Positions 6,001 through 15,000 of a DNA stretch of 17,374 nucleotides are shown in pieces (the first letter of the stretch is position 1; every line of letters starts with the position of its first letter). A program made the position numbers. Location: NCBI GenBank assembly GCA_002729175.1, contig PBTS01000039.1, positions 2,224 to 19,597 of the forward strand, read 5' to 3'. Origin of the DNA: Fidelibacterota bacterium (GTDB lineage: Bacteria; Fidelibacterota; Marinisomatia; Marinisomatales; S15-B10).

Positions 6001-9000
6001 ATATTAGCGAAGAAATATGGAATTGATTTAAAAAGCGGATCTGACTGTGAAATAATTCTGCATTTATATAAACGGTTTGGTATTAAAAAAACGATAGAAT
6101 CCCTTGATGGCGTCTTTATGTTTGTGTTAAACGATCAAAACAAGCAGGAACTATTTGCTGGAAGAGATCCATTTGGTGTGAGGCCTGGGTTTGTAGGACG
6201 AAAGGGGCACGAGATTATGTTTGCATCAGAAGCAAAACCTCTCATTGGTTTGTGTGACAAAATCGATCAGTTTAGCCCGGGCCACTGGTGGCAGCTATCC
6301 ACAGATAAATTCTCCAAATATAATTTTAATAATGATATCGACTTAAACGAAACGAATGAATTAAGTATTCTTGAAGGAATCCGAGAAAAGTTGACCGATG
6401 CTGTTCAAAAAAGAATGATGGCCGAAAGAGAAATTGGATCACTGTTGTCTGGCGGGCTTGATTCAAGTTTAATTTCTGCGTTGGTGAACCAATTTCATAC
6501 TGGACCAACCTTAAAAACTTTTTCAATTGGTATGCCTGGAAGCATCGATTTAGATTATGCGCAAATTGTTGCAAACCACATAGGCACAGACCATCACCAG
6601 ATTCAAATATCAAAAGAAGCATTCTTAGATGCAATTGAAACGGTTATATATAATATAGAATCCTTTGATACCACGACAGTGCGAGCAAGCGTTGGTAACT
6701 ATCTTGTTTCAAAATATATTCGAGAAAACTCGGACTGTAAAGTTATTTTTAATGGTGATGGTAGCGATGAGGTCTGTGGTGGGTATGTATATATGAAAAA
6801 CGCACCGACGGAGAACGATTTTCAACTGGAATGCAATCGTCTCGTTGATGAAATTCATTGGTTTGATGTATTGAGATCCGATCGAAGCATAAGCTCAAAC
6901 GGACTAGAAGCGCGGACACCGTTTTTAGACAAAGCTTTTGTTCAATACTATTTATCCATCCCCGCTAAAATGAAAACATTTGATGGGAAGCTCCGATTGG
7001 AAAAATATTTATTACGAAAAGCATTCGACCAATCAGAATTGTTGCCGGAATCTGTATTATGGAGAAGAAAATGTGCATTCTCTGATGGTGTTAGTGCCAA
7101 AGACAATTCATGGCATCACGTAATCCAATCATTTGTAGATAGTAAAATTTCTGACGAGGAGTACAAAACAAAATCGAAAGCATATGTTCATTGTAAACCC
7201 ATTTTAAAAGAGAGCTATTATTACAGAAAAGTCTTCGAATCTATTTTTGGGAAGCAGGAAAAACTTATTCCGCATTTTTGGATGCCGAAATGGGTTGAAA
7301 CCAATGATCCATCTGCAAGAGAGATGACCGGTTACATAGAATAAAAAACCCTGCTCATCCGTTTTGGGAAAGCAGGGTTTTTTCATTAGCGATAAATAAG
7401 AGTGAATTTATTCGACGGTTTCTCCGCCAAGAAGATCTTCAAGTTTGAAGGCTCCATCACTCTCCATTTGTTTGGCAGACTGCACAATGGATTTTCTGGC
7501 ATTATCAACATCCCGCTTGGGGACCGCACCGGCAACAGGTTCGTACATTGCCTGTTTCTTTTTAGGCAACACACCAATTACTCTATCGGAAATTAATTGA
7601 TCCATTCCTTTTAGAGCCATAGCCACTGTATCCAAATCCACCGCATTCATGAGGTCTCGCAGTAGGTTGTCCGGAAAGATTTCAAAAATTGTTTCAAATG
7701 TTATGCGGTATTTTTTTACCTCTTCGGCGAGTTCCGGGTTTTCTTGTTCGAGATTAGTCATGAACATTTCTTCTTCTTCAGGATCCATCGAACCCAATAT
7801 ATCAGCTAAATCTTTACCGCCACCCCTAGAAAAAGCCACCGTTTTGGGAAGCTGTTTTGCTTTTTTCTGAAGTTTATTTGCAATTTGCACAACGGCTTCG
7901 AGAGGTACATCATTTAGGTTGCCAATACTTAAAAGAACCTGACCTTTTTCTTCTTCACCAATACGGCTTAATACTTTCATACGTTTTTCAGCAGAAAGCT
8001 GTGCGATTGAAATTGCGATTACTCGAGGTGATTCCGTAATTAACATTGCAATAATTTGTTCATCGGTTAAGTCATCTAAAAACGCGAAGGGTTTCTTGGG
8101 TTCATCAGACTCTTCATTTCCTTGAAATTTTTCACTGACAAAAGAAAAATAAAATTCTTCCATCACCTGTTTTTTTACAGAAAAAGCAACATTTTCTACA
8201 TCGCGCATGGCCGCTCGAATTTTTCGAACTTCTGTTTTGTCTAAACTCTTAACTAGGTTTAATGCGAGGCTTTCTCCAAGTACGGAAAACAGGATGGCCA
8301 CTTTTTGAAGGCCCGAAAGTTTGTTATAATCTGAAATCATAATTGCCTCTTACTTTTTCTTTTTTTTCTTCTTCTTTTTGCCGCCACCATCATCTTCTGG
8401 CGTTTCCTGCGCTGTTGGCTCTGGTTCTGGCGGCGCTTCTTCCAAAATCCAATCCTTTACTATTTTTGAAGCTGCTTGTGGTTGACCAACGCTCATGGAC
8501 ACAACAGCTTGTTTCATATCGTTAACCTCACTTTGAAGTACGCCAATGTCTTCAATTGTTGTTGGTTTTGGTGTGGCGCGGGTTTGTTGTTCCTCAGAAA
8601 CGCTTACTGTTTCATCTTTTTTTTTAGGTTTTGGAGGATAGACCATCCAGGGTGGTGGCGGTGGCATTTGTTGCTTTGGTTTGTTCATTAAAACAAAAAC
8701 AAGAACAACCACGAGAACAATAACAAGCGCGCCAAGAATTGAAACAAAAACAATCATTCCAGTGTTGCTACCGCCAGAACGAGCTTGATTATCTAAATCG
8801 CTTTGCACCTGATCTAACATGGATAGTTTTTCAGCAATTTGGGAATCAAGGTTGGCTTTTTCTTGTAGTTTTTGTTGAACAGATGATTTGGCCTCAATGG
8901 ATGCAGAATCTGTTAATCCTGCGGTTCCAAGGAAAGCTTTTAAGTTTTGAATCTCTTCGTTGATAGATTGGAGACGTATAGAATCCTGTTTGAGTATAGA

Positions 9001-12000: not shown

Positions 12001-15000
12001 AGCTGTTATTTCAAAACCAACAGTTAGGCCCGCATGACCTTCCCAATATCGTTCTTTCCATTTAGGTAATTTTTCTATGTGGGTGAACCCTAGGTTAAGG
12101 CGATAATCCGAGGTAAGGGGGATGCGGAGTCCCACATTGATGCCATTCCCGTCAAATTCACCCACAATATCTACACCGCCCCATTTTTCTAGATAGGGCG
12201 TATTAAAAACTGCACCAGCAAAAACGCCGGCATTTGTTCCCGTTATTTCTTCAGTTAGCGTATCCGTATTTACCGTATCGATTGCACCAAAACCACCCGT
12301 TCCAAAACCGATAAATGTGTTCATATTGTATTGCCCGATTTGTTTCTGGCTACTCACAATACCAAAAAAGGATAACTCTTTTGGATCTAGATTAAGACCC
12401 TTAGTTTTATTTTCGAATACAATATCTTGAAGGCCAACGGTAAACGCGATATTTTCTCTTACGTATACCCGCCGCTGGATATGAAATCCAAACTCAACAG
12501 GCGCTTTATAAGTAGAGACCTCCAAGTTGGCGAGGCGAGTGGTATCGGCGCTCTGTGCGGTAGAAAACCCAAGCGTCCACCCAGAGTTGATATCCATACT
12601 GAAATAAGCACCCCCAGCTGTATTAAATGGAGATAAATTGTGAAGCTCAGATCCAAACCCAGCTGTAAACAAATAAGGAGACGGGCCAATTGACGTATAG
12701 GGGATTTTCATCATGGGGCCCGGCCTAAGATATGCAACACGGGTTGCACCAAAAATTGTAGAAAATAATATGAGCGATAATAATAGGGTGCGGTTTATCT
12801 GTTTCATTGGTGTCCGTCAGTGGTTTTTAATTCCATTTTTGCCAATCGAAAATATTCACTATCTGGATGCTGAGAGACAACATTACTAAAAGCAATAATG
12901 GCTAACGATTCATTCCCCATTTTTCGATGCAACAACCCCTTTTGGACCAATGCATCATCAATTCTGAGTGTGCCAGTGATAGAAATTTTATTTAAAAGCT
13001 GTAACGCGTTTTCATATTGCCCCGTTTGTTGGTAAGCATCAGCAGTCCAGTATAATATGTTTTCAACAGTTTTTTTAGGCGCCTCCTGTAAATTGAGGGA
13101 TAGAAATTTACTTAATGCAGTTTGGTAATCTTCTCGTTGGTAGGCAAACACACCAGCCATATATGTTGACTGGTTAAATTCCTGTATAGGTTTAGTTTTT
13201 GTTTTTTTAACCAATTCAGTTTTAGGTGATAAGATTGGTGTGTGCTCACGTCGGTTGGAGAGGTTGTTTCTATTTTGCATTTCTGCTAAACTTTGTTTGA
13301 GTTGCCCGTTCTCCTGGCGAAGGATATTCACTTCCGTGTGAAAGGAGTTTTCTAATCGTTCGATACGGTTATTAATCCGCCCCAAAGTGGATAGTAACTC
13401 CTTGCTGGAGGCCATATACACAGAGCCGCTCTCAACTTTTTTTATTTTAAAGGAAACTTCATCAGAGGGCTTTTCAACAAAATGGGATGAAACCTCAGAC
13501 CCTTTATTGGGTTCAATTACAATACCAAGATCTAAAAAAAATATTTCTGAGAGGGGTATTTCTTGTGCGCCCAAAGATCCGATAATTAATATGAGGGGCG
13601 ACAGGTGTTTTATCAGCGGCTTTCTATGGTTTAACGGGAATTTCAAACCCATTATTCGTACTCTTCCCAATCAATGACATAAGAGTATCCAATAAAAGAA
13701 CCAAAATCATGGGGGACATAAAGTTCGAAAGCTCCAGTGGCTCCAGGCAGGAGTGTGGCATCTGTTGTTATACCAGAATCAAAGGTGTGATATCCACCCC
13801 TTACAAAAGTTGTTAGAGTCTTTGTTTCACCGCTCCAATTTTTACGGAAGACAAAATCAACCTTAACAAAATCTGCTCTTCGACCGCCAATATTTTTTAA
13901 TTCCCCATTAAAAACATAATTACCTTGTACGTCTTTCTTTTCAGTAATATTCCCAACCAACACACAGTTTGCAGAGTATTTTTTTGATCCACCCCTTTCA
14001 GCGGATGTATACTGGGGCTCTGCCAGTTTTGGCATAGGTGGCGGTGTGTAGCTGTCACGCACTTGTTCGGGAACATATTCTGCCTGTTCTTCGGTAACAA
14101 CGTTATCAACCATCCGCACCACATCTTGTCGATTGATAATTAAGTAGCCAACAAGGGTTTCAACCTTCAAAGATTCTTCATCTTGATAAATGACTTTTCC
14201 AAAAACGGTAGAACCATTTTTCATGATAATCTCTTTGGAATAAATAGCAAGGGGGTTAACCCACATTTTACTGAGAGCTTTTAAATTTTCTAATTCTTCA
14301 TTGAGATATTTAAGCTCAGCGGTCATTTTTTTAATTTCAAAGCTAAGCTCATTAAGAATATAATCTTTTCCTGGGTCAGGTGTGAATTCTACTGCATCGA
14401 GAGCGGGGCTCTTTACCGTATCTGCTTGTGTGCCAGTTGGTGGTGAATCAGACGACAACTCAAGGTCACCTAGCTTAACATTTTTATCAGCCACCTCAAC
14501 GGGGGAGCTTAGCTTTCCGGTATCACCCCCATCGGCTTCTAATGTATAGTTACCTGGAAGCACTTTCGAAAATTCAAACTTTCCACCACCGCGCCCTAGC
14601 CGTTTTTTAGACGTTTCTGTGCGCTGGACCTCTGTTCCATCTTCTCCCAAAAGCAGGACAGTTGTTTTTACAACACCGTTTCCTTCTGGGTCAACCAGCG
14701 TTCCGGAAATGTTTTGCGGCTTCTGAGCGAACAATGTGGTTACAAGAAGGGTGAACATCACCCCAATTAGTAATTGTTTTAAAAATAATTTATTTGCCAT
14801 TTATCTTTACCTCGGATTGTGTGGCACCTAAAGATTTAAGTCTATAGGTACGAAAGTTTAGCTACGTTCTGTTCTTGAATCAAGTCAAAAATATCAGAAT
14901 AATATTTGAGGAGGAAGCATAAACTTAAAACGTTATTTCCAAAAGTCCTCGTAGGTTTTTTTGCGCTTTAGCAGTTGTTCTCGGGTTGAATCCACCTTTG

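What a model noticed while it worked through the whole genome (the two positions that open the first line are those of the whole stretch)
7408..14800. Non-flagellar MotAB-FliF-FliG seven-gene envelope machine
A co-directional seven-gene operon (three unknown secreted/outer-membrane proteins, MotA, MotB, a FliF-like two-TM ring protein and a FliG-like protein) sits in a genome with no other flagellar gene; a second copy lies on C64:1-4795. I read it as a stator-driven rotor (FliF/FliG-like ring turned by MotAB) coupled through the periplasm to an outer-membrane beta-barrel, i.e. a rotary envelope machine that is not a flagellum. If true this is a new use of the flagellar rotor-stator pair, kept phylum-wide in Fidelibacterota (SAR406).
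Evidence so far: Pfam rows: g01298/g01345 MotA_ExbB, g01297/g01346 MotB_plug+OmpA, g01296/g01347 YscJ_FliF_C, g01295/g01348 FliG_N/M/C; no FliM/N, FlhA/B, FliI, rod, hook or flagellin row in pfam.tsv. FliG_C found in 111 of 151 Fidelibacterota genomes, FlhA (PF00771) in only 38 of 151 and in 0 of the 29 sampled genomes of the order Marinisomatales; flagellated genomes carry two FliG: one scoring 130-150 bits and one 60-105 bits like ours. 104 relatives of the FliF-like protein in GTDB species genomes, best 80 all Marinimicrobia/Fidelibacterota/FCB bins but one; tblastn on these 80 loci: MotB 78, FliG-like 77, MotA 75, g01299 72, g01301 64, g01300 61, in the order 1301-1300-1299-motA-motB-fliF-fliG on one str [...]
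(Added by a program. Inside this text positions count along the whole contig: contig position 2,224 is position 1 of the stretch shown here. "Call 12" and the like, gene names such as g00115 and contig names such as C1 are that model's own, and its searches are not shown. The text may have been shortened before it was handed on; [...] marks where a part breaks off. The agent that wrote the report below was given it as the finding of a first reader that could run no searches.)

Follow-up and report, generated by a model that had tools for sequence, protein, structure and literature searches.

The report
Flagellar motor core without a flagellum
Ocean bacteria of the SAR406 group that have no flagellum keep, and seem to transcribe, a seven-gene operon joining the flagellar motor's rotor and ion-driven stator to new periplasmic and outer-membrane proteins; it is probably an undescribed envelope machine of unknown job.

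Summary
Seven tightly packed genes on the minus strand (7408-14800) encode three signal-peptide proteins, flagellar-type MotA and MotB, a FliF-like protein with only the RBM3/collar ring module, and a FliG-like protein. One secreted protein models as a 12-strand outer-membrane barrel with a periplasmic helix-TPR arm.

Two corrections. The window's contig is mis-binned: it belongs to another family (genus g10), so the "second copy" on C64 is the bin's own ortholog, not a paralog. Rod, FliM/N and flagellin were not found in 20 g10 genomes, nor FlhA in 18.

A marker for the barrel protein is found in 265 of 401 phylum genomes, 211 of them without FlhA. It was not found under labels of other phyla, apart from a few doubtful MAG labels. 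Four flagellated relatives carry it beside a canonical FliG, so it is a separate system, not a relic.

It evolves more slowly than neighbouring housekeeping genes. It is present in metatranscriptomes of 10 studies.

The stator-rotor contact residues are kept, while the FliM-binding motif and the export-gate modules are lost.

The scan noted this operon before on three other genomes. Six literature searches found no description.

The parts
13652..14800 (-). g1301, 382 aa: signal peptide, variable CarboxypepD_reg-like N-domain, coiled coil, then a strongly conserved phylum-specific C-terminal two-thirds that ends in a conserved ..DWEEYE tail
   Evidence: Pfam CarboxypepD_reg E 3e-6, below its cut-off. 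No Pfam family for residues 150-382. No solved relative by profile search. Conservation in 70 sequences. C-terminal tails in 132 distinct proteins. Hydrophobic N-terminus.
12804..13670 (-). g1300, 288 aa as listed. The likely start is the ATG at 13652, overlapping the g1301 stop by 1 nt, which gives 282 aa. Signal-peptide-like N-terminus, coiled coil, C-terminal TPRs (CpoB/YbgF-like architecture). It is the least conserved member.
   Evidence: TPR_6 at 38 bits. tol_pal_ybgF E 5e-8 and BamD E 5e-6, both below cut-off. Start context read. dN 0.252 against L008.
11455..12807 (-). g1299, 450 aa: signal peptide, 12-strand outer-membrane-type beta-barrel (about residues 45-270), 78-residue helix (296-373), three TPR-like helix pairs (376-438) with a near-invariant surface
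   Evidence: AF2 model with mean pLDDT 78. Foldseek hits to a designed 12-strand barrel (TMt 0.66), NanC (0.61), FapF and OmpG. Invariant block 394-432 in alignments spanning different classes.
10682..11452 (-). MotA/PomA-type stator A subunit, 256 aa, four hydrophobic segments
   Evidence: MotA_ExbB at 87 bits. MotP/PomA/MotA models at 150-166 bits, below equivalog cut-offs. Solved MotA/PomA at E 7e-38 to 1e-32 over the full length. R89, K90 and E96 kept in at least 95% of 89 sequences.
9882..10676 (-). MotB-type stator B subunit, 264 aa: one TM helix with Asp32, plug, OmpA-like peptidoglycan-binding domain
   Evidence: MotB_plug at 55 bits and OmpA at 48 bits. D32 invariant in 39 sequences.
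8350..9873 (-). FliF-like protein, 507 aa: N-terminal signal/anchor helix, RBM3 with long collar-like strands (about 35-212), about 150 residues of periplasmic helices (217-366), TM helix (371-396), proline-rich stretch, conserved C-terminal helices (443-477), poly-lysine end. No RBM1 or RBM2.
   Evidence: YscJ_FliF_C at 47 bits; no YscJ_FliF. Profile hit to the solved FliF RBM3 region, E 5e-5. AF2 model. Foldseek top 18 hits are all FliF S-ring/RBM3, E 2e-7 to 5e-6, and the next hit is E 0.036. The C-tail's only PDB hits are the extreme C-terminus of Vibrio FliF, E 0.88, which is not significant.
7408..8340 (-). FliG-like protein, 310 aa, with N, M and C domains. It keeps the Gly-Gly linker and basic/acidic residues on the torque helix. 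It has lost the EHPQ motif and a 25-residue N-M helix.
   Evidence: FliG_N/M/C at 62/41/69 bits. TIGR00207 at 116 bits against a cut-off of 227. Solved FliG at E 5e-23. Alignment with four canonical FliG of the same phylum. Conservation in 78 sequences.
14801..14932 (-). Upstream intergenic region, probable promoter and 5' end of the operon transcript
   Evidence: RNA-library contigs of four studies end at 14796-14849. Depth falls from 17-34 to 0-12 upstream of that point. This is a weak hint only. The sigma-70 pattern scan found no more sites than chance.

Best explanation
The operon encodes a self-contained, envelope-spanning, ion-driven machine built around a flagellar-type rotor-stator pair. 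It is not a flagellum and not a decaying one.

Inferred mechanism:
- The FliF-like protein oligomerises through its RBM3/collar module into a periplasmic ring anchored by one C-terminal TM helix.
- Its conserved cytoplasmic tail holds the N-domain of the FliG-like protein, giving a cytoplasmic FliG ring.
- MotA5B2-type units conduct H+ or Na+ past MotB Asp32. They are fixed to the wall by the OmpA-like domain and push on the FliG-like torque helix through MotA R89/K90/E96.
- There is no FliM/FliN and the EHPQ motif is lost, so there is no CheY-type switch. There is no RBM1/2 and no export gate, so nothing is secreted through the ring and there is no rod.
- The work is delivered in the periplasm. 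It passes through the about 150-residue helical segment and the ring of the FliF-like protein to the three secreted partners: a 12-strand outer-membrane barrel with an about 11 nm helix and an invariant TPR head, a CpoB-like coiled-coil-TPR protein, and a phylum-specific protein.

Shown: homology of the four motor parts, retention of the contact residues, the barrel fold (by model), conservation, independence from flagellar genes, and presence in RNA libraries.

Inferred: ring formation, rotation, every protein contact, and the output.

My leading guess for the output, with low confidence, is an envelope-maintenance task of the Tol-Pal kind rather than motility.
For: Identity of the parts:
- Family and structure matches.
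- Models: g1299 is a barrel plus helix plus TPR. The FliF-like protein's top 18 structural matches are all FliF RBM3/collar.
- Contact residues: MotB D32 is invariant in 39 of 39 sequences. MotA R89/K90/E96 are kept in at least 95% of 89 sequences. FliG-like K261, K262 and K275 are kept in at least 95% and E267 in at least 80% of 78 sequences. Distant FliG-like proteins (L082, L084) keep a full-length torque helix with R..EDE..RR.
- Losses that fit a non-flagellar role: canonical FliG of the phylum keep NEHPQT, while FliG-like proteins keep only the Glu. No PF01514 match.

Conserved order:
- The same order occurs in five loci from four further families and two other classes.
- Of the 80 loci, I examined 76; the four that already had ids were left out. 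All seven genes were found in 60, co-linear in 60 of 60. Among 57 loci with room on both sides, 56 had all seven.

Distribution:
- g1299 marker: 265 of 401 genomes, and 138 of 190 high-quality ones.
- FlhA: 80 of 401.
- By my hand tally of the two lists, 211 marker-positive genomes lack FlhA, 54 have both, and 26 have FlhA only.

Separate from the flagellum:
- Four of four flagellated genomes with two FliG hits carry a canonical FliG (134-144 bits) and a cluster-type one (69-74 bits).
- They also carry the cluster MotA at 54-73% identity plus one to four other MotA at 32-39%.

Selection:
- dN against L008 is 0.065-0.144 for six of the seven genes, compared with 0.149-0.245 for AKR, PPDK and GCS2 on the same contig.

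Expression:
- 20 of 22 listed RNA runs, from 10 studies, hold at least 57% of the sampled words.
- In four runs from four studies, contigs cover 7.1-14.85 kb at word depth about 9-48, against 0-7 on most flank bins.
Against:
- All four motor proteins score below NCBIfam equivalog cut-offs.
- In the window's order the torque helix has a 4-residue deletion and only one acidic residue.
- The match of the FliF-like C-tail to the FliF C-terminus is not significant (E 0.88).
- The N-terminal helix of the FliF-like protein may be a cleaved signal peptide or an anchor; this is undecided.
- The models are monomers with pTM 0.31-0.51.
- RNA evidence rests on contigs from runs chosen for holding this stretch. 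The tool warns that depth cannot rank genes and that DNA can be present in RNA libraries.
- The cluster was not found in whole lineages (f3 0/37, f12 0/8, f13 0/10), so it is dispensable there.
- The only cultured member of the phylum is described as non-motile (PMC11652737, passages read). I could not tell whether it carries the operon.
Confidence: 0.55

Rival explanations
1. Tol-Pal substitute. The machine uses ion flow to coordinate outer membrane, peptidoglycan and inner membrane during growth or division. The FliF-like protein plays a TolA-like role (anchor, long periplasmic helices, globular head). g1300 acts as the CpoB-like adaptor. g1299 and MotB act as the outer-membrane and peptidoglycan anchors. 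This rival concerns the output and is compatible with the rotor-stator mechanism.
For: - g1300 has CpoB/YbgF architecture (tol_pal_ybgF E 5e-8, below cut-off). Its paralog in the bin lies directly after PBP2 and RodA.
- The bin's only other MotA/ExbB-family gene lies in an ExbB-ExbD-ExbD-TonB row.
- In genus g10, no genome of the 20 searched had more than one ExbB-type and one cluster-type MotA match over the family cut-off; 11 of 20 had both. So no separate TolQ was seen.
- TolB_N was found in 0 of 27 sampled genomes of families f1 and f3-f9.
- The cluster shows housekeeping-like conservation.
Against: - The TolB_N model also fails on the Bacteroides control, so its silence is weak evidence.
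- The cluster is missing from diderm lineages with small genomes (f3, 0/37).
- No TolA, TolB or Pal homology was found in any member.
- Nothing explains why a FliG ring would be needed for this job.
Confidence: 0.2
2. Motor for surface movement or secretion: a stand-in for the GldLM/PorLM motor of type IX secretion and gliding. It would drive an outer-membrane component through the periplasm.
For: - The architecture is analogous: an inner-membrane 5:2 stator, a long periplasmic helical element and an outer-membrane partner.
- GldN was not found in 0 of 151 phylum genomes, with the control positive in 1 of 3 Bacteroidota-labelled MAGs.
I did not repeat that search.
Against:
- No T9SS gene lies beside the cluster in any locus whose flanks I scanned.
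- The cultured species is non-motile.
- g1299 has no detectable family link to T9SS barrels.
Confidence: 0.1
3. Static scaffold. The FliF/FliG-like proteins form a fixed platform, and MotAB acts as a gated ion channel or tether without sustained rotation. The TPR proteins only position it, as the stator scaffolds PflA/PflB, MotX/MotY and FlcA do (names recalled, not from a call, apart from a weak FlcA hit).
For: - TPR and coiled-coil proteins next to stators are the pattern of known stator scaffolds. A weak FlcA_CTERM hit, E 0.0024, was seen.
- The torque helix is shortened in the window's order.
Against: - The charged MotA and FliG residues, the MotB plug and Asp32 are all under strong constraint.
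- Such constraint is hard to explain without force generation.
Confidence: 0.1
4. Flagellar relic or accessory: leftover genes of a lost flagellum, or a part that only works together with a flagellum.
For: - The four motor parts are flagellar homologs.
- 54 of 80 FlhA-positive genomes also carry the cluster.
Against: - 211 of 265 marker-positive genomes have no FlhA.
- Rod, FliMN_C and flagellin were found in 0 of 20 genomes of the source genus.
- Flagellated genomes have their own canonical FliG and other MotA besides the cluster's.
- ORFs are intact, and dN is below that of housekeeping neighbours.
- Three dedicated non-flagellar genes sit in fixed order.
- RNA libraries hold the operon.
Confidence: 0.04

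Closest known systems
Torque-generating core of the bacterial flagellar motor (FliF MS-ring, FliG, MotA5B2/PomA5B2 stator)
   Same: Homologous MotA, MotB (plug, Asp, OmpA-like domain), FliG (N/M/C domains, Gly-Gly linker, charged torque helix), FliF RBM3/collar and a FliF-like C-terminal tail. The genes are adjacent in the order motA-motB-fliF-fliG.
   Different: - No RBM1/RBM2, export gate, FliM/FliN, rod, hook, filament or L/P rings.
- The EHPQ motif is lost.
- The FliF-like protein has about 150 extra periplasmic helical residues between RBM3 and its TM helix.
- Three unrelated secreted proteins are always co-encoded.
- The cluster is found mainly in genomes without flagellar genes.
GldLM/PorLM motor of type IX secretion and gliding (Bacteroidota)
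   Same: A non-flagellar 5:2-type ion motor in the same superphylum. It sends mechanical work across the periplasm through a long extended protein to outer-membrane-associated partners. This likeness is by architecture and is recalled; it was not tested here.
   Different: No sequence relation to GldL, GldM, GldK or GldN. GldN was not found in the phylum sample. The stator here is of the flagellar MotAB type with a peptidoglycan anchor, and it acts on a cytoplasmic FliG ring.
Tol-Pal system (TolQRA, TolB, Pal, CpoB)
   Same: - An ion-driven inner-membrane motor.
- A long helical periplasmic protein.
- An OmpA-like peptidoglycan binder.
- A CpoB-like coiled-coil-TPR protein in one operon.
   Different: The stator is MotAB-type, not TolQR-type. 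There is no TolA, TolB or Pal homolog. Coupling would run through cytoplasmic FliG, not through a TM helix inside the stator.
Periplasmic stator scaffolds of elaborate flagellar motors (PflA/PflB, MotX/MotY, spirochaete collar FlcA; names recalled)
   Same: TPR-rich periplasmic proteins encoded with, or acting on, MotB-type stators. A weak FlcA_CTERM hit to g1300 was seen.
   Different: Those scaffolds surround a complete flagellar basal body. Here there is none, and one partner is itself an outer-membrane barrel.
Zorya anti-phage system (ZorAB)
   Same: MotAB-derived stator used outside the flagellum. MotB hits ZorB models at E 3e-16.
   Different: No ZorA-type long tail, and no ZorC/D/E. MotA, FliF-like and FliG-like proteins hit no PADLOC model. 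The cluster is a core, vertically conserved locus rather than a mobile island.

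Membership tests
Flagellar-type stator MotA/MotB (PomAB/MotPS group) | A subunit with four TM helices and a cytoplasmic loop carrying the conserved Arg/Glu that face FliG | tested here: met
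   Full-length alignment to solved MotA/PomA, E 7e-38 to 1e-32. Four hydrophobic segments. R89/K90/E96 kept in at least 95% of 89 sequences.
Flagellar-type stator MotA/MotB (PomAB/MotPS group) | B subunit with a TM Asp, a plug and an OmpA-like peptidoglycan-binding domain | tested here: met
   MotB_plug at 55 bits and OmpA at 48 bits. D32 invariant in 39 of 39 sequences.
Flagellar-type stator MotA/MotB (PomAB/MotPS group) | Score above the curated equivalog cut-off of a flagellar stator model | tested here: not met
   The best scores are 166 bits against a cut-off of 394 (MotP), 161 against 341 (PomA), and 146 against 259 (MotB family).
FliG (flagellar rotor/switch protein) | Three domains N, M and C, with a Gly-Gly linker | tested here: met
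   FliG_N/M/C all score above Pfam cut-offs. G173 and G174 are invariant.
FliG (flagellar rotor/switch protein) | EHPQR motif of the middle domain, the FliM-binding site | tested here: not met
   Four canonical FliG of the phylum have NEHPQT. Seven FliG-like proteins keep only the Glu. Positions 104-106 are below 60% conserved in 78 sequences.
FliG (flagellar rotor/switch protein) | Charged residues on the C-domain torque helix | tested here: inconclusive
   Distant cluster members keep R..EDE..RR. The window's order has a 4-residue deletion, with KKK, one Glu and K/R left.
FliG (flagellar rotor/switch protein) | Equivalog score (TIGR00207) | tested here: not met
   116 bits against a cut-off of 227.
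FliF (MS-ring protein) | RBM3 with beta-collar | tested here: met
   YscJ_FliF_C at 47 bits. Profile hit to the solved FliF RBM3 region at E 5e-5. Foldseek top 18 hits are all FliF S-ring structures.
FliF (MS-ring protein) | RBM1 and RBM2 (PF01514), which seat the export gate | tested here: not met
   No PF01514 match in the protein or anywhere in the bin.
FliF (MS-ring protein) | C-terminal FliG-binding helix | tested here: inconclusive
   The tail is conserved. Its only PDB matches are the last 27 residues of Vibrio FliF, but at E 0.88. Binding was not tested.
Bacterial flagellum | Type III export gate, C-ring FliM/FliN, rod/hook and filament genes in the genome | tested here: not met
   The bin gave no FlhA, FliP, FliMN_C, rod or flagellin match. 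In genus g10, FlhA was found in 0 of 18 genomes, and rod, FliMN_C and flagellin in 0 of 20 each.
Type IX secretion/gliding motor (GldLM with GldKN) | GldN/PorN ring protein present; GldL/GldM homologs | tested here: not met
   GldN was found in 0 of 151 genomes, and the control was positive in one Bacteroidota-labelled MAG. I did not repeat the GldL/M search. No cluster protein hits these families.
Tol-Pal system | TolQ/TolR-type stator, TolA, TolB, Pal, CpoB | tested here: not met
   Only a sub-threshold CpoB-like hit to g1300 (33.5 bits against 90). The stator is MotAB-type. TolB_N was not found in the window's close families.
Zorya defence system | ZorA with a long cytoplasmic tail, plus ZorB and ZorC/D or E | tested here: not met
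   Only ZorB models hit MotB. The other six proteins have no PADLOC match.

The most novel reading that the evidence does not exclude
A third kind of rotary envelope motor, beside the flagellum and GldLM. A FliF/FliG ring spun by MotAB has shed the export apparatus and rod. It passes torque through a cylinder of periplasmic coiled coils to TPR adaptors and a 12-strand outer-membrane barrel. In SAR406 it does a housekeeping envelope job, possibly standing in for the missing Tol-Pal system. It could be either a descendant of the flagellar motor or a living example of a rotor-stator module working without a secretion system.
Probability: 0.3. Interest if true: 0.9.

Novelty: new variant of a known kind. 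Interest (0 to 1): 0.8.

Why it matters
FliF and FliG are treated as flagellum-only proteins, and the flagellar-type MotAB stator as flagellum-specific. One recent survey defines that stator clade by flagellar function; I read its abstract and passages (PMC12505986), and it does not mention this phylum.

Here the pair is kept under strong constraint in an abundant, mostly flagellum-less ocean phylum. It sits in a fixed operon with new envelope proteins.

If it works as a motor, it shows that the rotor-stator module can function without the type III export core. That bears directly on how the flagellum was assembled in evolution. It would also add a new way of bringing ion-motive energy to the outer membrane.

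It also warns against scoring MAGs as motile from fliG or motAB alone.

Tried and rejected
- **Complex prediction.** I asked for MotB periplasmic domain plus FliF-like RBM3 plus the g1299 arm. No contact was tested.
- **Sigma-70 promoter and terminator scan.** 21 promoter-like sites against 20.1 expected, and 7 terminator-like sites against 8.5 expected. Uninformative.
- **Pfam at E up to 5.** Nothing for the g1301 C-terminal part or the g1299 barrel.
- **PDB profile search with 33 g1301 sequences.** Nothing relevant.
- **ESM Atlas.** Only phylum-specific 'hypothetical' clusters. Weak leads to YaiO-type barrel-TPR proteins (score 0.87) and to a cluster labelled Margulisiibacteriota (0.97) were not followed.
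- **The listing of cluster members.** Ten distant g1299 representatives gave no names or taxa.
- **Search for the system outside the phylum.** A 13-sequence alignment of distant g1299 was too diverse to scan with. A 3-sequence one found 5 Neomarinimicrobiota-labelled loci and 4 weak partial hits in Bacteroidota and FCPU426 MAGs, which I did not pursue.
- **dN/dS.** dS is saturated (above 1.4, or undefined) at the distances tried, so only dN is used.
- **Type IX secretion link.** GldN is absent with a working control. There is no positive evidence for a link.
- **TolB_N as a Tol-Pal probe.** The matches are weak and the model does not ring in the Bacteroides control, so it is of limited value.
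- **PADLOC.** Only generic ZorB-MotB likeness.
- **Literature.** Six searches and passages of four papers gave no description of this operon. Subscription journals are not covered, and I opened no supplements.
- **RNA depth.** The lower depth on the flanks and on the upstream TPR gene is read only as a hint.

Full report
**What is in the window.**
Seven ORFs lie head to tail on the minus strand between 14800 and 7408. They are separated by 3-9 nt or overlap by a few bases.
- The third gene starts with ATGA over the stop of the second.
- The second most likely starts at the ATG at 13652, sharing one base with the stop of the first.
- In order of transcription they are g1301 (382 aa), g1300 (288 or 282 aa), g1299 (450 aa), MotA (256 aa), MotB (264 aa), a FliF-like protein (507 aa) and a FliG-like protein (310 aa).
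- The flanks are housekeeping genes: asparagine synthase and pyruvate phosphate dikinase downstream, and a small TPR lipoprotein-like gene, Smr and an aldo-keto reductase upstream.

**The four motor parts are real homologs.**

*MotA*
- It matches MotA_ExbB (87 bits) and, over its full length, the MotP, PomA and MotA models of NCBIfam (150-166 bits).
- It also matches solved MotA/PomA chains at E 7e-38 to 1e-32.

*MotB*
- It has the plug (55 bits) and an OmpA-like domain (48 bits).

*FliG-like protein*
- It has all three FliG domains above Pfam cut-offs.
- It aligns to solved FliG at E 5e-23.

*FliF-like protein*
- It matches only the C-terminal Pfam model of FliF (47 bits), not PF01514.
- A 7-sequence profile hits the RBM3 region of solved FliF at E 5e-5 to 6e-4.
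- Its AF2 model (40-sequence alignment, mean pLDDT 69) shows an alpha-beta-beta-alpha-beta unit with two very long strands.
- The 18 best Foldseek matches are all FliF S-ring/RBM3-collar structures (E 2e-7 to 5e-6). The next hit is at E 0.036.

*Caveat*
- Every one of these proteins scores below the curated equivalog cut-offs. They are relatives of, not members of, the named flagellar families.

**What is kept and what is lost.**

*Kept*
- MotB Asp32 is invariant in 39 of 39 sequences.
- MotA R89, K90 and E96, in the loop that faces FliG in flagellar motors, are kept in at least 95% of 89 sequences.
- The FliG Gly-Gly linker is kept.
- A basic-acidic-basic pattern on the torque helix is kept. 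Members from other classes (L082, L084) have a full-length helix with R..EDE..RR. The window's order has a 4-residue deletion that leaves KKK, one Glu and K/R.
- A conserved C-terminal tail of the FliF-like protein is kept. Its only PDB matches are the last 27 residues of Vibrio FliF, at a non-significant E of 0.88.

*Lost*
- RBM1 and RBM2 of FliF are gone.
- The EHPQ motif is gone. Four canonical FliG of the same phylum have NEHPQT, while the seven cluster-type FliG aligned keep only the Glu.
- A 25-residue helix between the N and M domains is gone.

*New*
- About 150 residues of helix (217-366) lie between RBM3 and the single clear TM helix (371-396).
- A proline run follows the TM helix.
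- The protein ends in a poly-lysine stretch.

*Reading*
- These losses are the ones expected if the ring no longer seats an export gate and no longer binds FliM.

**The three upstream proteins.**
All three have hydrophobic, signal-like N-termini.

*g1299*
- It was modelled with 36 sequences of 26-87% identity, giving mean pLDDT 78.
- The model is a 12-strand antiparallel barrel (residues 45-270), then a disordered linker, a 78-residue helix and three TPR-like helix pairs.
- Foldseek puts the barrel next to a designed 12-strand transmembrane barrel (TMt 0.66), NanC (0.61), FapF and OmpG.
- Its last 40 residues before the tail are almost invariant across classes.

*g1300*
- It has the coiled-coil-plus-TPR layout of CpoB/YbgF, with sub-threshold hits at E 5e-8.
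- A paralog lies directly after PBP2 and RodA elsewhere in the bin.

*g1301*
- It has a variable CarboxypepD_reg-like domain and a highly conserved C-terminal two-thirds.
- That conserved part has no Pfam family and no solved relative.
- In most of the 132 distinct homologs it ends within three residues of an invariant Trp-Glu.

**Binning correction.**
- The window's contig (C60) has GC 0.408 against 0.458 for the bin. It sits among a low-GC tail of contigs.
- Its PPDK is 99% identical to that of G208 (family f5, genus g10), 73-74% to two other g10 genomes, and 66-67% to two genomes of the bin's own genus.
- Its FliF-like protein is 98% identical to G208's. The copies in the bin's own genus are 42-43% identical to it, like the C64 copy at 44%.
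- With 7.1% estimated contamination, C60 is best read as a mis-binned contig from a g10 organism.
- The cluster on C64 is then the ortholog of the bin's main organism.
- So there are not two copies per cell. One g1299 match per genome is the rule.

**No flagellum.**
- The bin has no match to FlhA, FliP, FliMN_C, the rod motif, flagellin or PF01514. All controls rang in four flagellated reference genomes.
- Because the contig is foreign to the bin, I repeated the test on its real lineage.
- In genus g10, FlhA was found in 0 of 18 genomes. Rod, FliMN_C and flagellin were each found in 0 of 20 genomes, 8 of them at least 90% complete.
- No g10 genome of the 20 searched had more than one ExbB-type and one cluster-type MotA match over the family cut-off, and 11 of 20 had both.
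- In the bin, the ExbB-type gene heads an ExbB-ExbD-ExbD-TonB row.

**Distribution.**
- A profile of g1299, the most specific marker, finds 265 of 401 sampled genomes of the phylum at E no greater than 1e-20. That is 138 of 190 high-quality genomes and 95 of 114 genera.
- The single FliF-like protein finds 256 of 401.
- FlhA is found in 80 of 401.
- By my hand tally of the two lists, 54 genomes have both, 211 have the marker only, 26 have FlhA only and 110 have neither. All four combinations therefore occur.
- Families without the marker include f3 (0/37, genomes of about 1 Mb), f12 (0/8) and f13 (0/10). It is rare in f26 (5/33) and f30 (1/9).

**A paralogous system, not a relic.**
- I looked at five FlhA-positive genomes.
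- Four have two FliG_C matches: one at 134-144 bits and one at 69-74 bits, like the window's.
- The fifth (86% complete) showed only the low-scoring one.
- The same four genomes have the cluster's MotA (54-73% identical) plus one to four other MotA genes at 32-39% identity.
- Cluster-type and canonical FliG of the phylum are only 20-24% identical.

**Conserved order.**
- In 35 close loci the neighbours are conserved too, so that set says little.
- Five loci from other families and classes (28-82% identity per protein) keep the order g1301-g1300-g1299-motA-motB-fliF-fliG, while the flanks change.
- Two of those loci have an extra TPR gene inserted.
- A last scan centred on a distant member gave 228 relatives. 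Of the best 80, I examined 76 new loci.
- All seven genes were found in 60 of them, co-linear on one strand in 60 of 60.
- Of 57 loci with enough DNA on both sides, 56 had all seven.
- Record titles are Marinimicrobia, Neomarinimicrobiota, Fidelibacterota or 'uncultured bacterium' in the great majority.
- The exceptions are one short Nitrospinales-labelled and one short Terriglobia-labelled contig, and six 'uncultured Lentisphaeria' labels that I could not verify.
- The most divergent g1299 representatives from the 1.8-billion-protein library again led only to Neomarinimicrobiota-labelled genomes, plus four weak partial hits.
- Within the reach of these searches the system is confined to this phylum.

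**Constraint and expression.**

*Constraint*
- Against a relative at 75-92% protein identity (L008), dN values are:

| Gene | dN |
|---|---|
| MotA | 0.065 |
| g1301 | 0.074 |
| MotB | 0.077 |
| g1299 | 0.083 |
| FliG-like | 0.089 |
| FliF-like | 0.144 |
| g1300 | 0.252 |
| AKR (neighbour) | 0.149 |
| PPDK (neighbour) | 0.209 |
| GCS2 (neighbour) | 0.245 |

- dS is saturated, so no ratio is quoted.

*Expression*
- Twenty of 22 listed RNA-library runs, from 10 studies, hold 57-89% of the sampled 31-mers of the 7.4 kb stretch.
- I laid runs from four of those studies on 5600-16100.
- Contigs cover 7.1-14.85 kb at word depth about 9-48. Most flank bins are at 0-7, and one run has no flank cover at all.
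- Long contigs bridge several gene junctions.
- Contigs of all four runs end at 14796-14849, just upstream of the first start codon.
- Limits: these are contigs from runs chosen for holding this stretch, DNA can sit in RNA libraries, and I laid no DNA run. I read this as moderate evidence that the seven genes are transcribed together. It is a weak hint that the upstream TPR gene is not part of the unit.

**How it most likely works.**
- The simplest reading that uses every conserved feature is a rotor-stator engine.
- A FliF-like RBM3 ring would be held in the inner membrane, with a FliG-like ring on its cytoplasmic tail.
- MotA5B2-type units fixed to the wall would push that ring.
- With no FliM/FliN there would be no chemotactic switching. 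With no gate or rod there would be no secretion channel and no axle.
- The new helical segment of the FliF-like protein and the three secreted partners, each with its own coiled coil, are then the candidates for carrying the work to the outer membrane or for caging the stators.
- I cannot tell these two roles apart. The near-invariant TPR head of g1299 must bind something equally conserved.
- Candidates, by inference only, are the GLPIPGF loop or the N-terminal YLAQKLM motif of the FliF-like protein, the MotB periplasmic domain, or the conserved C-terminal peptide of g1301.
- The g1301 peptide recalls the way carboxylate-clamp TPRs hold EEVD tails. That comparison is recalled, not tested.

**What it might be for.**

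*Tol-Pal-like envelope task*
- For: the CpoB-like member and its PBP2-RodA-linked paralog; the absence of any TolQ-type stator and of TolB_N matches in the close families; and housekeeping-like conservation.
- Against: the weakness of the TolB probe, and loss of the cluster in several diderm lineages.

*Gliding or type IX motor*
- For: architecture only.
- GldN is absent, with a working control.
- The one cultured species is described as non-motile (PMC11652737, passages read).

*Defence*
- A defence role is unlikely. Only MotB resembles ZorB, and the locus is core and syntenic.

**Novelty.**
- Six full-text searches found no description of a MotAB-FliF-FliG module outside a flagellum or in this phylum.
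- I also read passages of a 2025 survey of MotAB relatives, which calls the flagellar-type clade flagellar (PMC12505986).
- I read passages of a 2026 preprint on the ancestral flagellum (PMC13277936), an ODZ MAG study that scores motility from fliG, fliM and fliN (PMC10359470), and the description of Fidelibacter (PMC11652737). None describes this module.
- The library lacks most subscription journals, and I opened no supplements.
- This scan had already noted the same operon on three other genomes, with the same reading. Those are AI notes, not independent evidence.

Noticed in passing
whole window (G000:C60): The contig is mis-binned. GC is 0.408 against 0.458. Its PPDK is 99% identical to a genome of another family (G208) and 66-67% to the bin's own genus. 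About a dozen low-GC contigs of the bin may share this origin.
   Followed up: yes
window 12065-12133: In all four RNA-library runs the contigs break here. Short 42-57 nt contigs reach word depth 87-153, and the bin sum is 180-560. The place lies inside the most conserved coding part of g1299. It is probably k-mers shared by many strains, but an abundant short RNA was not excluded.
   Followed up: no
window 14933-15484 (-): A 183-aa TPR protein with a lipoprotein-like signal (Cys20) lies upstream of the operon in 23 of the 35 close loci, many of which are cut by contig ends. It is also present in L083 and L085, but not in the three loci of other orders and classes. Its RNA-library depth is much lower than the operon's.
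   Followed up: partly
window 8350-8385 and 8640-8700 (-): The FliF-like protein ends in a run of nine lysines. A PPPPPW stretch follows directly after its TM helix. Both features recur in relatives, and neither is explained.
   Followed up: no
L265:5847-6686 (G000:C45): A paralog of g1300 (25% identity, TPR/YfiO-like) lies directly downstream of PBP2 and RodA. This hints that the protein type links to peptidoglycan synthesis.
   Followed up: partly
L263:5944-6798 and L264:1002-2576 (G000:C48, C43): Paralogs of the conserved C-terminal half of g1301 (25-26% identity) sit in a repeated row. The row comprises a PD40/Peptidase_MA protein of about 1050 aa, a metallophosphoesterase, a HEAT-repeat protein and the g1301-like protein.
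   Followed up: partly
L082:3324-4454 and L084:16291-17430: A baeRF_family10 (release-factor-like) gene lies just upstream of the cluster in two loci from different classes. It is absent from the window.
   Followed up: no
L228, L236, L239, L251, L257 (and one more): Six contigs with the full co-linear cluster carry the depositor's label 'uncultured Lentisphaeria bacterium'. This could be a labelling artefact or real presence in another phylum; I did not resolve it.
   Followed up: partly
window 7510-7590 (-), FliG-like residues 258-276: The torque helix carries a 4-residue deletion in the window's order. It is full length, with an EDE cluster, in members of other classes (L082, L084).
   Followed up: partly
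window 13652-13680 (-) and 11500-11640 (-): g1301 ends in a conserved ..DWEEYE-COOH tail across 132 distinct homologs. The g1299 TPR has invariant Arg/Lys/Asn residues. A carboxylate-clamp style TPR-peptide contact is an untested idea.
   Followed up: partly
window 15933-15991: The listed Smr ORF (GTG start, minus strand) and the aldo-keto reductase ORF (plus strand) overlap by 59 nt at their 5' ends. The Smr start is probably called too far upstream.
   Followed up: no
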